A stretch of 51,191 nt of DNA from an uncultured bacterium (GTDB lineage Bacteria > B130-G9), in the NCBI GenBank assembly GCA_965372715.1, contig CBDVDH010000022.1, positions 1-51,191 on the forward strand. The letters are read 5' to 3'. Position 1 is the first letter of the stretch. Each line of letters starts with the position of its first letter. Both the position numbers and the translations under genes were made by a program. The notes under the pieces were generated by a model. It saw only the letters and a list, made by a program, of their open reading frames with translations, did no database searches and was not told where the DNA came from. Shown piece after piece: positions 1 to 7,610 of the stretch.

Positions 1-275
1 TCATAACAGAAAGCGAAAATAGCATCAAGTGAAATGTGTTACACTACACTAGGATCATGGTTGCCCCTTTGCATCGCCTCGGCTGAAGCCGGGCGATGAG
101 AGACCTGCCCCCCGATGTAAGCGATGACATTCTCCAGAACCGACGGAGAGGATGGTTGAATCAACTCATCTGCATCGCTACAATCCTCTCAGACGATTAC
201 AGGAGTATCTCTGCGATGTTTGGCATTTCCTTCTTCGTTGGAGCCAAACCGCTCGCGATCCAAATGTGAAGGAGC

Positions 276-1490
276 ATGAACATGAGATTCACAACCCTAT
301 TCGTGGCTTTGGCCGTCACTCTTCTGGTGTGCACGACAGCAACAGCCGAGCCAACAATCACCATTTACACGGACGCCGACACATATCAATCCGGTGACAC
401 TATTGAGGTGAGCTTATCGGCTCAAAGTGATGACCAAGCGATGTCAGTCGCTGTCTATGTTGGGATCATCCTGCCAGACGGAGACATCTGGTCCACGCAA
501 TACGATGGCTGGAGCCATTCTATCGAGCCCTGGATCCCGGATATCTTTGTCCCAGCCTGGTTCGAGATGGAGCCTACTACTTTCTGGACATTCGATCTTC
601 CATGCGGAGCGCCACCTATAGAAGAGGCAGGAGATTACAGTTTCGCCGCGGTTCTCACGTATTCAGGAACGTCCGATTGGATGTCCGAGCTGAGCCTGGC
701 GCCATTCTCGTATGAAGCCGGGCCTTCGGCGGATATCCCGATGGTCTGCATCCCGGCCGGGTCATTCCTGATGGGTTCGCCGGTCGGTGAGGCGGGGCGT
801 TTTTCAGATGAGGGGCCGCAGCGGACGGTGAACATCTCGGCGTTTGAGATGTCTGAGACGGAGGTGACTGAGAAGCAGTGGGAAGACGTCGTGGGCTGTA
901 ACGATTGTTCCTCCAAGTGTGGGGACAGCTATCCTGTGGAGAATGTTACCTGGTTCGACTGCGTGAGTTTCTGCAACGAGCTATCCGAGATCCACGGCTA
1001 CACGAAGTGCTACGCGATCACGAATATCGGCTATAGCGGCAATCATATCATATCGGCGGACGTGACGTGCAATTTCGAGGCGAACGGCTTTCGCTTGCCG
1101 ACGGAGGCCGAGTGGGAGTATGCGTGTCGTGGAGGGACGACGACTCGTTTCTATACGGGCGATTCGGATTCAGATCTTGCTCGAGCGGGCTGGTATGATT
1201 GTTCTCAGAAGCACGAGGTTGCTCAGAAACAGGGAAATGGTCTTGGCCTCTATGACACTCATGGAAACGTATGGGAGTGGTGTTGGGATTGGTATGATGA
1301 AGGTTATTATGGGACGCAGCCTGATCCGGATAGCGATCCTGCGGGCCCTGGCAGTGGCGCCACTCGGGTCCTGCGCGGCGGCGGCTGGGGCAGCAGCGCC
1401 CTGTACTGCCGATCGGCTTGCCGAAGCTGGGATGAGCCGAGCTACCTGATCACCTACTACGGCTTGCGCGTTTGTAGCTCAATTCGTTGA
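276..1490 (+). CDS. Exported formylglycine-generating-enzyme (FGE-sulfatase/SUMF1, CLec-fold) domain protein with an N-terminal ~120-aa Ig-like domain
   Basis: Signal peptide ending ATA-EP; motifs IPAGSFLMGS, TEVT, PVENVTWFD, FRLPTEAEWEYACRGG, GLYDTHGNVWEWCWDWY, RVLRGGGW; AAGGAG RBS. Confidence 0.9.
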   Translation: MNMRFTTLFVALAVTLLVCTTATAEPTITIYTDADTYQSGDTIEVSLSAQSDDQAMSVAVYVGIILPDGDIWSTQYDGWSHSIEPWIPDIFVPAWFEMEPTTFWTFDLPCGAPPIEEAGDYSFAAVLTYSGTSDWMSELSLAPFSYEAGPSADIPMVCIPAGSFLMGSPVGEAGRFSDEGPQRTVNISAFEMSETEVTEKQWEDVVGCNDCSSKCGDSYPVENVTWFDCVSFCNELSEIHGYTKCYAITNIGYSGNHIISADVTCNFEANGFRLPTEAEWEYACRGGTTTRFYTGDSDSDLARAGWYDCSQKHEVAQKQGNGLGLYDTHGNVWEWCWDWYDEGYYGTQPDPDSDPAGPGSGATRVLRGGGWGSSALYCRSACRSWDEPSYLITYYGLRVCSSIR

Positions 1491-1665
1491 TTACTCGTGC
1501 GCCTCCCTGCATCGCCAGAAGCTACATTCGATGAGGGATCGATCTCCAAATCGCCGAGGACCACTCCCTATACTACTGATCAATCTTGAATCGCATGTCC
1601 TGCCTTATTACTATGGTAACTCTATCTACGATGGCACATTCATGAGGCAATAAGGAGGCGAGGTA

Positions 1666-2121
1666 TTGGAACACTGGCATATATGGGTAATTGCGGGAAT
1701 TGTCCTGCTGATCGCGGAGATATTCACGCCGGGCTTCGTGCTGGCGTGTTTCGGCGTGGCGTGCCTCGTAGCGGCAATCTTCGCCGCGTTTGACTTGGGT
1801 CTGACAGTTGAGGTCATCGTCTTTTGCGTCGCGTCAGTAGTTGCCTTCTTTGCAGTCAGGCCGCTCTTCGCGAAGCGCTTTTATCGCTCTGACGATGAGG
1901 CCACGAAGACGAATGTGGATGCGCTTGTGGGCAAGGTGGGTATGGTTGCGGAGAGGATTGACCCCGATGTCAATGTGGGCAGAGTTGTCTTAGGAGGCGA
2001 CAATTGGAGAGCCATCTCGGTGGATGGCGCCGTGATAGAGCTGAGCGAGAAGGTCGAGGTCGTTCGAGTTGAGGGAACCAAACTGTTCGTCAAGAAAGTT
2101 CTGAAAAAAGAGGAGGAGTAG
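1666..2121 (+). CDS. NfeD-like membrane protein (stomatin operon partner)
   Basis: TTG start after TAAGGAGG; hydrophobic N-half (LLIAEIFTPGF); C-terminal OB-fold motif LVGKVG..GRVVLGGDNWRA; directly upstream of SPFH gene. Confidence 0.9.
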   Translation: MEHWHIWVIAGIVLLIAEIFTPGFVLACFGVACLVAAIFAAFDLGLTVEVIVFCVASVVAFFAVRPLFAKRFYRSDDEATKTNVDALVGKVGMVAERIDPDVNVGRVVLGGDNWRAISVDGAVIELSEKVEVVRVEGTKLFVKKVLKKEEE

Positions 2122-2123
2122 CT

Positions 2124-3131
2124 ATGGGAGCCGGTTTGGGCATTCTAATTGCGGTTGTTATTTTCATCATCATCTTTGCGGCTAAGGGGCTTGTCATCGT
2201 CCAGCAGGCAGAGACGCTGGTCATCGAGCGGCTCGGTAAGTTCGACCGATTGCTCACGTCGGGCATCAACATCATCTGGCCGATCGTTGACAGGCCGAGG
2301 CAGATAGAGTGGCGCTATACTCGGGAGGACCACCGCGGCGCCAAGATCGTCTTGCGGCGCCAGGTCAAGAGGATCGACCTTCGCGAGACGGTCTATGACT
2401 TTCCTCGGCAGAACGTCATCACGAAGGACAACGTCGTTACCGAGATCAACGCGCTCTTGTATTTTCAGGTCACCGATCCGATGAAGGCTGTTTATGAGAT
2501 AGCGAACCTTCCCGAGGCGATAGAGAAGCTGACGCAGACGACGCTCAGGAACGTCATCGGCGAGCTCGACCTGGACCAGACGCTCACGTCTCGGGACACC
2601 ATCAACACCAAGCTCCGCGAGATACTGGACGAGGCGACCGACAAGTGGGGCGTCAAGGTCAACCGCGTCGAGCTTCAGGACATCAATCCGCCGAAGGACA
2701 TCCGCGACGCGATGGAGAAGCAGATGCGGGCCGAGCGCGACAGGCGGGCGGTCATCCTCACTGCGGAGGGCGAGAAGAGGTCTCGCATTCTGGAAGCGGA
2801 AGGCTACAGGGAGGCGAAGATCAACAAGGCCGAGGGCGAGAAACGCGCGAAGGTCCTGATGGCGGAGGGGCAGGCCGAGGCGCGCGTGAAGGTCGCCCAT
2901 GCGGAGGCCGAGGCGATCGGCATGGTGACCAAGGCGATTGCGGAGAGCAAGGGCGACCCCGCCAATTACCTCATCGCGGTTCGCTACATCGAGACGCTGA
3001 AGGAGATGGTGTCCGGCAAGGACAACAAAGTGGTCTATATCCCGTTCGAGGCGACGGGCGTCCTGAGCTCGATAGGCGGCATCAAGGAGATGCTGGAGGG
3101 CGTTAGCAAGAAGAAGGAGAGCTGGGAGTAA
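2124..3131 (+). CDS. SPFH/band 7 (stomatin/QmcA-like) membrane protein
   Basis: N-terminal TM; ERLGKF, QNVITKDNV, TTLRNVIGELDLD, WGVKVNRVELQDI, AMEKQMRAER motifs. Confidence 0.95.
   Translation: MGAGLGILIAVVIFIIIFAAKGLVIVQQAETLVIERLGKFDRLLTSGINIIWPIVDRPRQIEWRYTREDHRGAKIVLRRQVKRIDLRETVYDFPRQNVITKDNVVTEINALLYFQVTDPMKAVYEIANLPEAIEKLTQTTLRNVIGELDLDQTLTSRDTINTKLREILDEATDKWGVKVNRVELQDINPPKDIRDAMEKQMRAERDRRAVILTAEGEKRSRILEAEGYREAKINKAEGEKRAKVLMAEGQAEARVKVAHAEAEAIGMVTKAIAESKGDPANYLIAVRYIETLKEMVSGKDNKVVYIPFEATGVLSSIGGIKEMLEGVSKKKESWE
2934..3033 (+). repeat. 100-bp direct repeat, copy 1 (inside SPFH gene)
   Basis: Matches 3530-3629 at 93/100 by manual alignment. Confidence 0.9.
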
Positions 3132-6178: not shown

Positions 6179-6925
6179 GTGAAGTTCATGATCATAGATG
6201 ACAGGTCCGGACGAGCGTCTGCTGGCCTGATACTGTCCGTCGTGCTCGCGGCGGGGATCATCGCGCTGGTTGTGTATTTCGCGGTTGGGCCTCAATCAAG
6301 TGAGCCGAGCGGAACCGAGACGCGGGGCGGCATTCCAGCAAGCCCTTTGCTGGGGGCGGTCGAGGCGACGAGGCAGCAGGTTGACAAAATGAGTAGGCAG
6401 CGGAGTGGGCTAGCCCAAGCCGTTGGGGTGGCCGGCGCCCAGTTGAATGACGTCGCCTGGCGAGCGGAGAGGGATTGCCGCGACATCGCGACGGCGCTTT
6501 CGGCCTTTAAGACGGACATAGGCACTTGGCCTGTGAAGAGCGCAGCCGACGAGGACGAGCCGGTCGATTTCCTTTACGGCGTCGGCAGCTTGCCGAAGTT
6601 CACCGAAGGCGCCCGCGAGTCGTGGGGCGCTCGGTCGGAGGACCTGCACTCGTATCTGGTCAGCAATGGCCCAGAGAAGAAGGCGTGGTATGACTACTTC
6701 AAGAATGTGTCTGGCCGCTTTGATGGCTGGAACGGGCCGTATCTCCCGCGCGAGCTCGCCGACCCCTGGGGCCGCGCCTACGTCATATCGGTATCGGGCT
6801 TCGAGGGCGGCACAAAGCCGGGCAACAACGTCTGGCGCCTCTCAGCCGGCCCCAACGGCATCGTCGAGACGCCCGCGTCGGCAAAGGAGCTCGAAGGCGA
6901 CGATGTGGGTGTCTGGGTCAGGTGA
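6179..6925 (+). CDS. Membrane-anchored protein with GspG/pseudopilin-like C-terminal domain
   Basis: N-terminal TM; IATALSAFKTDIGTWP, WNGPYL, DPWGRAY, LSAGPNG..ET, GDD motifs of T2SSG; start uncertain (GTG 6179 or ATG 6188). Confidence 0.7.
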   Translation: MKFMIIDDRSGRASAGLILSVVLAAGIIALVVYFAVGPQSSEPSGTETRGGIPASPLLGAVEATRQQVDKMSRQRSGLAQAVGVAGAQLNDVAWRAERDCRDIATALSAFKTDIGTWPVKSAADEDEPVDFLYGVGSLPKFTEGARESWGARSEDLHSYLVSNGPEKKAWYDYFKNVSGRFDGWNGPYLPRELADPWGRAYVISVSGFEGGTKPGNNVWRLSAGPNGIVETPASAKELEGDDVGVWVR

Positions 6926-6964: not shown

Positions 6965-7339
6965 TCATCTTTTCAAGTCCAGGTCTATGCAAAGGGCAAT
7001 AGATTTGCAGATGTTCGAAACCATTTCGTCGGGCAATACGCCGAGGCGCTTGACAAATCGCTTCACTGATATGGATCGGACCTGAAACGCGTCGGCCGCG
7101 GAGACTTTTGACAGGCCATTCTGCTTATCGGGATAGATGCGTGTCATCCAAGGGAAACCTGCGTATTCATCTTCCCATCGGGTTACGGGCACAATGATTC
7201 GTAAGGGCAGTCTTCCGGTCTTGACAGAGCTCATAACCAGGGCTGGGCGCCGCTTCGATATCTCAGCCCCCCTCGTAGTGCCGAGATCAACGAGCCAGAT
7301 CTCGCCCCTATTCGGAGTAGTCCTCAAAATCCTCGCCAT
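6965..7339 (-). CDS. PemK/MazF-family toxin
   Basis: RGEIWLVDL...GAEISKRRPALVMS, IVPVT, NGLSKVS.AD.FQVRSIS..RF..RLG. Confidence 0.9.
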   Translation of the reverse strand: MARILRTTPNRGEIWLVDLGTTRGAEISKRRPALVMSSVKTGRLPLRIIVPVTRWEDEYAGFPWMTRIYPDKQNGLSKVSAADAFQVRSISVKRFVKRLGVLPDEMVSNICKSIALCIDLDLKR

Positions 7340-7610
7340 CCAAACACGTAAACTCCGTCAAAGACGGATCGTTCTCATAACACCGGGCCGCGAGGTCCGC
7401 GGCAGCCTCCAAGTAAGGCCAGCGGTCCTTCGCAGACATGGCGAGCAGCTTGTCCAGAAGCTCCGTATGCCGCCGAGTAATCTCGGCTTCCTTGACCGCG
7501 TCAAATTGAGGCACCGTCTGTTCTGACGCAGTCCCGGCCACCGACGATCGCTGGCGGGGTTCCTGCAAGACATCCTGCCCAGTCTGAGGCCCATCAGGCG
7601 AATGGGACAT
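7308..7610 (-). CDS. Putative antitoxin upstream of MazF
   Basis: ATG 7610 with AAGGAGG RBS; acidic C-terminus LEAAA...YENDPSLTEFTCLDGEDF; overlaps the toxin start. Confidence 0.65.
   Translation of the reverse strand: MSHSPDGPQTGQDVLQEPRQRSSVAGTASEQTVPQFDAVKEAEITRRHTELLDKLLAMSAKDRWPYLEAAADLAARCYENDPSLTEFTCLDGEDFEDYSE

What the first reader, a model, noticed from the sequence alone, without database searches (positions are those of the whole stretch)
1365..1490. 3' end of the exported FGE-sulfatase/CLec gene looks like a DGR variable repeat (possible remote target)
Seen: the final codons read CGG GTC CTG CGC GGC GGC GGC TGG GGC AGC AGC GCC CTG TAC TGC CGA TCG GCT TGC CGA AGC ... AGC TAC CTG ATC ACC TAC TAC GGC TTG CGC. 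Most positions that are Asn (AAC) in typical DGR templates for this fold (RGGSWNNN.xNCRSANRN...NNNxGFR) are NNC codons here, whereas Tyr/Asp codons just upstream are TAT/GAT. Established: FGE-type CLec domains are common DGR targets and adenine mutagenesis converts AAC to NNC. Inference: a surface ligand-binding protein diversified by a DGR located elsewhere. I found no TR or RT in the window, and high GC3 alone could partly explain NNC codons. An imperfect hairpin lies at 1504-1538.
Basis: partly seen in the sequence, partly recalled or inferred. Interest (0 to 1): 0.72.

Follow-up and report, generated by a model that had tools for sequence, protein, structure and literature searches.

The report
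Orphan retroelement-type variable tail on lectin gene
The last 105 coding bases of this secreted lectin-fold gene carry the footprint of a diversity-generating retroelement, whose template exists in two related genomes, but this genome's assembly holds neither template nor reverse transcriptase and this copy looks frozen.

Summary
Gene 276-1490 (+) encodes a 404-aa protein with an FGE-sulfatase domain. Its best solved relative is TvpA, the Treponema protein diversified by a diversity-generating retroelement (DGR).

Segment 1365-1469 is rich in codons ending in C. Two-fold codons run C:T 10:1 there against 49:53 upstream.

Two related genomes of the same phylum (probably Candidatus Coatesbacteria), G005 and G006, carry AAC-rich template repeats (TR) homologous to this segment. 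Against the G005 TR, 23 of 35 adenine sites differ but only 9 of 70 other sites. Across 17 family tails, the third base of AAC-aligned codons is better conserved than synonymous sites of scaffold codons. The family is therefore DGR-written.

For this copy, activity is not shown:
- The 95.9%-complete assembly has no TR and no DGR reverse transcriptase.
- The copy has about 7 private non-adenine differences.
- It lacks the hairpin conserved downstream of sister tails.
- Bases 1188-1462 are 273/275 identical to a gene in another genus, with no adenine-site difference.

The 1504-1538 hairpin is no better than chance and resembles a dispersed repeat.

Verdict: a new member of a known kind, most likely an orphan or frozen variable repeat. 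The scan found similar orphan cases on other DNA.

The parts
276..1490 (+). Gene for a 404-aa protein: predicted signal peptide, about 130-aa N-terminal module, FGE-sulfatase/C-type-lectin domain and variable tail.
   Evidence: ORF. Pfam PF03781 at aa 156-399. Best solved relative is TvpA 2Y3C, E 2.4e-37. The signal peptide (aa 1-25, MNMRF...ATA|EP) is read by eye and was not run through a predictor.
741..1472 (+). FGE-sulfatase domain.
   Evidence: Whole-genome Pfam search places PF03781 at C22:741-1472, E 1.4e-46.
1365..1469 (+). DGR variable-repeat homologue: 35 codons, RVLRGGGWGSSALYCRSACRSWDEPSYLITYYGLR.
   Evidence: It aligns without gaps to the G005 template repeat, with 23 of 35 adenine sites and 9 of 70 other sites differing. 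Codon and composition shift. Same scaffold as 17 family tails.
1470..1490 (+). Tail and stop codon. GTTTGTAGCTCA resembles the 3' continuation of the templates (GTTTGCAGCTCA) more than the tails of most sister genes do.
   Evidence: Side-by-side print of the tails.
1188..1462 (+). 275-nt block that is 273/275 identical to a gene in another genus (G002:C27). It covers the variable repeat plus 177 nt upstream of it.
   Evidence: Sliding identity, alignment and boundaries, shared 40-mers. The same protein block is seen in 1 of 49 aligned homologues, P0004.
1504..1538 (+). Imperfect hairpin 14 nt after the stop. Probably a degenerate relative of the genome's dispersed hairpin repeat, not a DGR cruciform.
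   Evidence: Fold z = -0.3 and -1.0. Arms compared by eye with the repeat copies.
45..102 (+). Copy of a dispersed REP-like hairpin repeat upstream of the gene, close to the contig start.
   Evidence: The 16-mer at 85-100 has 37 matches in the genome at 2 or fewer mismatches, against 1 for the reversed control. 23 copies at 1 or fewer mismatches are aligned.

Best explanation
Bases 1365-1469 are a DGR variable repeat by descent. The gene belongs to a family of secreted N-module plus FGE-sulfatase (C-type-lectin fold) proteins in this phylum, probably Candidatus Coatesbacteria. The ligand-binding tail of these proteins has been written by mutagenic retrohoming: an AAC-rich template repeat is transcribed and reverse-transcribed with errors at adenines, and the cDNA replaces the 3' end of the gene. 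That gives NNC codons on a fixed RV.RGG..W...A..CRSA.R....P.......GFR scaffold.

Shown: the template exists in two related genomes, and the family tails carry the adenine-specific, third-base-conserving signature.

Inferred: this particular copy is no longer being rewritten, or at least has not been recently. It is an orphan or frozen allele that now changes by ordinary substitution and by recombination with related genes. I infer this from its non-adenine drift, its missing 3' element, its allele shared with another genus, and the absence of template and RT in the assembly.

The protein most likely acts as an exported binding protein, not as a formylglycine-generating enzyme.
For: 1. Fold and closest relative. 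PF03781. TvpA, the DGR-diversified Treponema protein, is the best solved match at E 2.4e-37, against 1e-23 for true FGEs.

2. Templates in relatives. G006:C128:287-381(-) and G005:C247:7370-7477(-) read RV[KI]RGGSWNNNAQNCRSANR..NNPRNRNNN(N)GFR. They are 87/92 identical to each other.

3. The template core is a real DGR template. A 35-nt core of this template occurs in 4 metagenome contigs. In all 4 an RT ORF with YxDD lies immediately 5' of it.

4. This tail against the G005 template. 23/35 adenine sites changed against 9/70 other sites, Fisher p = 6e-8. AAC-aligned codons changed at positions 1/2/3 in 8/6/2 of 12.

5. The family. In 17 tails the mismatch rate is 0.62 at adenine sites and 0.12 elsewhere. 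AAC codons mismatch at 0.70/0.46/0.10 by position, while adenine-free codons mismatch at 0.07/0.03/0.24. 200 of 204 residues at AAC sites are reachable by adenine changes alone.

6. Near-perfect template/target pairs exist. G005:C32 has 24 adenine and 2 other mismatches. G006:C94 has 15 and 1.

7. Evidence for stasis of this copy:
- It has 8-9 non-adenine mismatches, about 7 of them private relative to the sister tail on C55.
- Its allele is shared with G002:C27 with 0 adenine-site differences and 3 other differences over the 105 nt. The shared block is 273/275 identical.
- The conserved 3' hairpin GCGAAGGGTC...GACCCTTCGC follows 12 sister tails but not this one.
- The own genome has no template repeat.
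- It has no RT by RVT_1 or by a DGR-RT profile.
Against: The assembly is a 112-contig draft, 95.9% complete, so absence of template and RT is not proof.

In G005 the template lies 95 nt from a contig end. None of the 7 genomes of the phylum shows a DGR RT, although G005 and G006 have near-perfect template/target pairs. The RT therefore seems to escape these assemblies systematically.

Two other tails in this genome are as faithful to the template as live-looking targets elsewhere: C55 with 3-4 non-adenine mismatches, and the C12 fragment with 0 of 15. A DGR may therefore be present here and unassembled. Its template could differ from the G005 and G006 templates and fit this copy better.

The block shared with G002 could be an assembly artefact, or so recent that it says little about long-term activity.

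Adenine-biased differences are partly expected for any homologue of a template, because AAC codons sit at the selected variable positions. The third-base argument is the stronger one, and for this single copy it rests on 12 codons.

No read-level data cover the segment.
Confidence: 0.6

Rival explanations
1. Active remote target. A TR-RT cassette of this organism exists but was not assembled or binned, for example because it broke at repeats or sits on a mobile element. It still rewrites 1365-1469 in trans.
For: Remote targets are documented for FGE-type DGRs: 45 of 372 DGRs have non-adjacent targets, and Treponema has seven (Wu et al. 2018, PMC5758913, passages read).

The G005 template sits 95 nt from a contig end, next to a repeat. 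No genome of the phylum shows a DGR RT, yet G005 and G006 have near-perfect template/target pairs.

The tails on C55 and C12 of this genome are faithful to the template.

The tail after 1469 resembles the template's 3' continuation.
Against: This copy has 8-9 non-adenine mismatches to either known template, about 7 of them private relative to C55. By the criterion quoted in PMC5758913 (only A-to-N differences, with minor exceptions) it would not be assigned to such a template.

It lacks the 3' hairpin that follows sister tails.

The allele in G002 has no adenine-site difference.

RTs of this DGR class are easy to detect: all 120 listed relatives carry PF00078. None is in the assembly.
Confidence: 0.2
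2. No DGR involvement. The motif is just the conserved C-terminus of the FGE-sulfatase fold. The NNC codons reflect GC3 bias, and the tail differences reflect ordinary positive selection on a binding site.
For: The RV.RGG...CRSA.R...P...GFR scaffold belongs to the fold itself (alignment).

The genome prefers C in two-fold codons, at 65.8%. Against that background I estimate by hand, with no call behind it, that 10 of 11 is only weakly unusual (about p 0.07).

The assembly has no template or RT.
Against: AAC-rich non-coding homologues of the tail exist in two related genomes.

In 17 family tails the third base of AAC-aligned codons is better conserved (0.10 mismatch) than the third base of adenine-free scaffold codons (0.24), while positions 1-2 vary at 0.70 and 0.46. 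This is the reverse of ordinary coding divergence.

200 of 204 residues at those sites lie in the set reachable from AAC.

The codon shift is significant against the same gene's upstream part, p = 0.009.
Confidence: 0.06
3. Recombination is the operative diversifier for this copy. The binding-site cassette 1188-1462 was recently imported from, or exported to, a related genus by homologous recombination within the conserved family framework. No retrohoming was involved.
For: 273/275 identity over 1188-1462 with G002:C27. The rest of the two genes is 40-88% identical (60-nt windows over 301-1187), and the flanks are unrelated. The block extends 177 nt upstream of any homology to the templates, so template-derived cDNA cannot explain it.

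Smaller exact shared segments occur between other family genes: a span of 71 nt (7312-7382) between C79 and L114, and others.
Against: Among the loci I held there is only one large block.

An assembly chimera across a repeated family cannot be excluded, and I could not check whether the two genomes share a source.

This explains how the allele arrived, not how the NNC-type tail arose. It therefore complements DGR descent rather than replacing it.
Confidence: 0.35

Closest known systems
Treponema denticola TvpA and its DGR (FGE-sulfatase-type CLec1 targets, 'category b' of Wu et al. 2018, PMC5758913)
   Same: [quoted passage not shown] TvpA is the best solved-structure match, E 2.4e-37, aligned through RVLRGGSW...C. 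Both families have many paralogous or remote targets. The scaffold and AAC-type template are like those in the related genomes.
   Different: No cognate template or RT is found in this genome's assembly. This copy has non-adenine drift. It carries an N-terminal module that is also fused to other secreted proteins of the phylum.
DGR cassettes with RT-TR order (architectures A2 and C of Wu et al. 2018)
   Same: The 35-nt template core shared by G005 and G006 recurs in 4 metagenome contigs, each with the RT ORF running into the template. The same order is seen in control loci L062, L071 and L080.
   Different: In G006 no RT lies within about 850 nt upstream of the template. An IS200-like gene and the target lie there instead. 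In G005 the 95 nt upstream hold a REP-like repeat and then the contig ends. No accessory gene was seen beside either template.
Formylglycine-generating enzymes (SUMF1/FGE, e.g. PDB 2AFT, 1Y1E, 6MUJ)
   Same: Same Pfam family, PF03781. The C-terminal scaffold aligns.
   Different: The matches are much weaker, E 1e-18 to 1e-23 over part of the domain, against 2.4e-37 for TvpA. From the Wu et al. passages I read, TvpA has no formylglycine-generating activity. I did not check the catalytic residues here.
Orphan DGR variable regions reported earlier in this scan (e1-5069696, e1-1165950)
   Same: Variable-repeat footprint at the 3' end of a lectin-fold gene, with no RT or template nearby and no sign of current variation.
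   Different: Those are different organisms and gene architectures. Here the template can be shown in related genomes. I did not re-test those notes.

Membership tests
DGR variable repeat (target of mutagenic retrohoming) | The variable repeat lies at the C-terminal end of a C-type-lectin / FGE-sulfatase fold protein. | tested here: met
   PF03781 at aa 156-399. Best solved match is TvpA 2Y3C.
DGR variable repeat (target of mutagenic retrohoming) | A cognate template repeat in the same genome that differs from the variable repeat only at template adenines. | tested here: not met
   BLAST of 1330-1500, a 'match-or-A' sliding scan of the whole assembly, BLAST with both related templates and motif scans find only coding tails. 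The assembly is 95.9% complete in 112 contigs, so absence is not proven.
DGR variable repeat (target of mutagenic retrohoming) | A DGR-clade reverse transcriptase in the genome. | tested here: not met
   RVT_1 gives 0 matches at E <= 0.01. A profile of 4 DGR RTs gives 0 matches. In the 6 relatives only group-II-intron-like fragments and a 523-aa RT that is not DGR-like were found.
DGR variable repeat (target of mutagenic retrohoming) | Adenine-specific mismatch pattern against a template of the family. | tested here: inconclusive
   23/35 adenine sites against 9/70 other sites changed versus the G005 template, p = 6e-8. But 8-9 non-adenine mismatches exceed the 'minor exceptions' allowed in PMC5758913, and the template is from another genus.
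DGR variable repeat (target of mutagenic retrohoming) | AAC-to-NNC codon signature: positions 1-2 variable and position 3 kept. | tested here: met
   This copy changed at positions 1/2/3 in 8/6/2 of 12 AAC-aligned codons. The family of 17 tails mismatches at 0.70/0.46/0.10, against 0.07/0.03/0.24 for adenine-free codons.
DGR variable repeat (target of mutagenic retrohoming) | A 3' target-recognition element: an IMH and a nearby GC-rich hairpin or cruciform. This is recalled from work on Bordetella phage BPP-1 and was not read here. | tested here: not met
   Sister tails are followed by a conserved hairpin GCGAAGGGTC..GGGC-loop-GCCC..GACCCTTCGC in 12 loci, with no covariation. This copy lacks it. 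Its own hairpin is not better than chance. Whether the conserved hairpin has this role is inference.
DGR variable repeat (target of mutagenic retrohoming) | Hypervariability of the repeat within populations. | not testable with these tools
   Only two low-share runs were found, held as contigs, with no cover over 1401-2400 and 0.25 mean depth in the 1301-1400 bin.
Formylglycine-generating enzyme (catalytic FGE) | Catalytic cysteine pair and copper site (recalled). | not tested
   Only relative similarity was measured: true FGEs match at E 1e-18 to 1e-23 over aa 257-399, and TvpA at 2.4e-37.

The most novel reading that the evidence does not exclude
This phylum (probably Coatesbacteria) runs a dispersed, multi-target DGR whose parts are uncoupled. 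Chromosomal template repeats carry a conserved element of about 143 nt on their 3' side and have no RT beside them. Up to dozens of paralogous lectin-tail targets are each marked by a conserved 3' hairpin. The RT is supplied in trans from an element that never bins with the genome. Finished variable cassettes are in addition passed between genera by recombination. On this reading, window 1188-1462 is such a traded cassette.
Probability: 0.12. Interest if true: 0.6.

Novelty: new member of a known kind. Interest (0 to 1): 0.33.

Why it matters
FGE-type lectin tails are the largest known class of DGR targets, so another one is ordinary.

Three things give modest value:
1. It places DGR templates and a large target family in this phylum. 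My one literature search pairing 'Coatesbacteria' with DGRs found 2 papers holding both terms. In the one listed and read, the passages do not attribute a DGR to this phylum.
2. It shows how to call a variable repeat when the cassette is missing, by using templates from related genomes together with the third-base test.
3. It warns that absence of an RT in draft genomes is weak evidence. All 7 genomes of the phylum lack a DGR RT, yet two have templates with near-perfect targets.

Tried and rejected
- Reads. The look-up of sequencing runs gave two marine-sediment runs with 0.14 and 0.05 of the sampled words, both held as contigs. Laid on 1-3000 they give exact fragments at 231-393, 560-750 and 1054-1206, almost nothing over 1301-1400 (0.25 mean depth) and nothing over 1401-2400. 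This says nothing about variability.
- Avd. A PF05635 hit at G000:C13:48103-48402 stands alone beside a formiminotransferase-like gene, with no RT. I rejected it as a DGR accessory gene.
- RT hits in relatives. L108, L110 and the hit on G006:C96 are group-II-intron-type fragments. L109 and L111 hold a 523-540-aa RT with FIDDY, followed in L111 (G002) by a four-helix-bundle protein. None is DGR-like.
- Rfam. The element just 3' of the G005 template gives a full-length but sub-threshold RT-14 match, 33.1 bits against a gathering score of 48.1, E 0.17. Nothing appears at genome scale in the 7 genomes, and there is no RT-motif hit in 6 control DGR loci. I kept this only as a weak lead. Weinberg et al. 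2017 (PMC5737381, passages read) tie only RT-10 to a DGR.
- Viral contigs. Three scans, with the template core, a degenerate template and the 3' element, each gave 0 hits.
- Big-database search with a DGR RT whose template shares the core: none of the 120 listed carries a Coatesbacteria name, and most carry no name at all.
- Positional orthologue. The same-genus genome G004 has, upstream of the NfeD/SPFH pair, a gene with the same N-module fused to beta-helix repeats and a run of N, not an FGE gene. In G005 the contig ends there. G002 and G006 have other genes. No orthologous tail could be compared.
They served as controls. My self-BLAST detector flagged 7 of 115 loci: L047, L062, L071, L080, L091, a short dubious pair in L105, and L115.
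- A first BLAST for near-identical blocks returned nothing, because the alignments extended over whole genes and fell below the 95% filter. I replaced it with 40-mer sharing.

Full report
**What is at the coordinates**

The window is contig C22 of a 3.56-Mb, 112-contig genome, 95.9% complete. Names on its closest protein relatives place it in Candidatus Coatesbacteria.

ORF 276..1490 (+) encodes 404 aa. By eye it starts with a signal peptide. An N-terminal module of about 130 aa follows, and it recurs fused to other proteins. Then comes a PF03781 FGE-sulfatase domain, aa 156-399, E 8e-47.

The best solved relative is TvpA, the DGR-diversified protein of Treponema denticola (2Y3C), at E 2.4e-37. 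True formylglycine-generating enzymes reach only 1e-18 to 1e-23.

**Is the codon pattern more than chance?**

- In 1365-1469, 60% of codons end in C, against 29% upstream.
- Two-fold NNY codons run C:T 10:1, against 49:53 upstream (Fisher p = 0.009). The genome-wide figure is 65.8% C.
- Adenine falls from 21% to 13% (all).
- The hairpin at 1504-1538 folds as described but scores z = -0.3 and -1.0 against shuffles.
- Its arms look like a degenerate copy of a dispersed hairpin repeat. That repeat has 37 matches in the genome at 2 or fewer mismatches, against 1 for the reversed control, and one copy lies at window 45-102.

**Template and RT in this genome**

- BLAST of the segment finds only paralogous gene tails.
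- A sliding scan accepting 'match or adenine in the other copy' at 85% or more finds only the segment itself. The shortest of the four windows also gave one A-rich chance hit on C19, with 21 of 56 bases matching.
- BLAST with the templates later found in relatives finds only coding tails.
- Motif scans for AAC runs find nothing template-like.
- RVT_1 gives no match at E <= 0.01.
- A profile of four genuine DGR RTs taken from control loci also gives none.
- RTs of this DGR class are easy to detect: all 120 listed relatives of one such RT carry PF00078.
- A PF05635 (Avd-like) gene on C13 stands alone.

**The family**

The genome has 15 PF03781 matches. Six genes (C22, C49, C98, C55, C79, C23) share NVWEWCWDWY..YYG..PDPDSDPTG..RV.RGG followed by a hypervariable tail on a CRSA.R...P...GFR scaffold.

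In 50 aligned homologues the consensus shows 'x' exactly at the tail positions, while the rest averages 60% column identity.

All 7 genomes held for the phylum have the family, with 3 to 34 matches each at E <= 1e-40. These are matches, not copy numbers, and some cover only the N-module.

**Templates in relatives**

A self-BLAST detector for repeat pairs with at least 75% of mismatches at adenines of one copy flagged 7 of 115 loci. These were five distant control loci, one short dubious pair, and L115 from G006.

In L115, 287-381 (-) reads RVKRGGSWNNNAQNCRSANRNRNNPRNRNNNGFRV. It lies 845 nt downstream of a 405-aa family gene, 69% identical to ours, with an IS200-like gene between them.

A second template lies at G005:C247:7370-7477 (-). 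It is 90% identical to the 131-nt G006 query over 110 nt and 87/92 identical over the template core, and sits 95 nt from the contig end.

A 35-nt core common to both occurs in 4 metagenome contigs. In all 4 an RT ORF with YxDD runs into it. The RT-then-template order is known (Wu et al. 2018, PMC5758913, passages read).

Both templates are followed by a conserved element of about 143 nt, 86% identical between them. A second copy in G005 lies on the other side of a small two-gene module. Its Rfam RT-14 match is sub-threshold and did not replicate.

No DGR RT is found in any of the 7 genomes.

**This tail against the templates**

Aligned in frame without gaps to the G005 template, 105 nt:
- 23 of 35 adenine sites differ, against 9 of 70 other sites (p = 6e-8).
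- The 12 AAC-aligned codons changed at positions 1/2/3 in 8/6/2 cases.
- The 15 adenine-free codons changed at position 3 in 5 cases, and at positions 1-2 in 1 of 30.

For 17 family tails:
- Mismatch rates are 0.62 at adenine sites and 0.12 elsewhere.
- AAC codons mismatch at 0.70/0.46/0.10 by position.
- Adenine-free codons mismatch at 0.07/0.03/0.24.
- 200 of 204 residues at AAC sites can be reached by adenine changes alone.

These 17 are the tails that aligned without gaps over at least 90 nt, among the phylum loci L113-L167 plus the own genome. The two templates were removed, and tails with indels or shorter alignments were dropped. An earlier count that wrongly kept the G006 template gave nearly the same figures.

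A third base that is better kept than synonymous sites of the scaffold is the reverse of ordinary divergence, and is what repeated resetting from an AAC template predicts. The family is DGR-written.

**Is this copy live?**

Ranking by non-adenine mismatches:
- G005:C32 has 2, out of 26 mismatches in total.
- G006:C94 has 1 of 16, against its own genome's template.
- G000:C55 has 3-4.
- A fragment at G000:C12:10897-10960 has 0 of 15.
- C22 has 8-9, about 7 of them private relative to C55.

Sister tails are followed by conserved words and then a conserved hairpin, GCGAAGGGTC..GGGC-loop-GCCC..GACCCTTCGC. It is present in 12 loci from 6 genomes and shows no compensatory changes. C22 lacks it.

Most telling, the G002:C27 gene carries the same allele. 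P0004 is the only one of 49 homologues to do so. Over the 105 nt, 0 adenine-site states and 3 other sites differ.

The identity is a block, window 1188-1462, at 273/275, with both differences synonymous. The rest of the two genes is 40-88% identical (60-nt windows over 301-1187), and the flanks are unrelated. The block starts 177 nt upstream of any homology to the templates. It is therefore recombination or an assembly chimera, not retrohoming. Since it arose, no rewriting has been fixed in either copy.

**Verdict**

I am about 0.9 confident that the segment is a DGR-type variable repeat by descent. I put about 0.2 on it being a currently active remote target, and about 0.6 on the reading given as best: an orphan or frozen allele, now moved by recombination.

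Absence of the RT from all seven draft genomes, two of which have templates with near-perfect targets, shows that the absence here is weak evidence.

Two earlier notes of this scan describe similar orphan variable regions on other DNA. I did not re-test them.

Noticed in passing
window 1188-1462; L114 (G002:C27): A 275-nt block is 273/275 identical between genes of two different genera. The neighbouring parts of the genes are 40-88% identical (60-nt windows) and the flanks are unrelated. This is either recent recombination or transfer of a binding-site cassette, or an assembly chimera.
   Followed up: partly
window 45-102 and at least 23 other places in the genome (e.g. C2:94071, C34:91 and 348, C52:21): A dispersed REP-like hairpin repeat, consensus about GGGGGTTAGGACAATGATAGCC..TGCATCGCCTCGGCTGAAGCCGGGCGATGAGG. 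Several copies lie at contig ends. A related copy lies just upstream of the G005 template at its contig end.
   Followed up: partly
G000:C12:10897-10960 (own genome, outside the window): An isolated 3' half of a family variable repeat with the family's 3' flank but no FGE domain upstream (stop codons in frame). All 15 differences from the G005 template are at adenines. It looks like a truncated target remnant.
   Followed up: partly
L137:2367-2428, L114:2748-2809, L151:158-219, L154:1660-1721 and 8 more loci: A conserved hairpin lies about 55 nt after the stop of family genes in 6 genomes: a 10-bp outer stem GCGAAGGGTC/GACCCTTCGC, an inner GGGC/GCCC stem and a 4-nt loop. It is preceded by CACTTGC-like words and shows no compensatory changes. 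It may be a DGR target-recognition element or a terminator.
   Followed up: partly
L159:7218-7365 and 6476-6589; L115:127-272: A conserved element of about 143 nt lies immediately 3' of both templates. In G005 a second copy lies on the other side of a two-gene module (86-aa and 78-aa ORFs that look like a toxin-antitoxin pair by eye). The Rfam RT-14 match is weak, 33 bits against a threshold of 48.
   Followed up: partly
L115:557-976 (+): An IS200/IS605-type transposase-like ORF (139 aa) sits between the target gene and the template in G006. The family name is by eye and no profile was run.
   Followed up: no
L111:784-2355 (-) and 2-787 (-); L109: A 523-aa reverse transcriptase with a FIDDY motif, present in G002 and G003; in G002 (L111) it is followed by a protein containing a four-helix-bundle (Avd/23S-IVP-like) region (the L109 neighbour was not examined). 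It is not DGR-like. It may be a defence-type RT.
   Followed up: no
L186:1870-3780 (-) (G004, same genus): At the position syntenic with the window gene (upstream of NfeD/SPFH), G004 has the same N-terminal module fused to parallel beta-helix repeats, with a run of N. The N-module is therefore a shared leader domain of different secreted proteins. There is an in-frame stop near its start.
   Followed up: no
window 1666-3131: An NfeD-like membrane protein (151 aa) and an SPFH/band-7 protein (335 aa) lie directly downstream. The SPFH protein is 86-96% identical across the phylum. The names are by eye.
   Followed up: no
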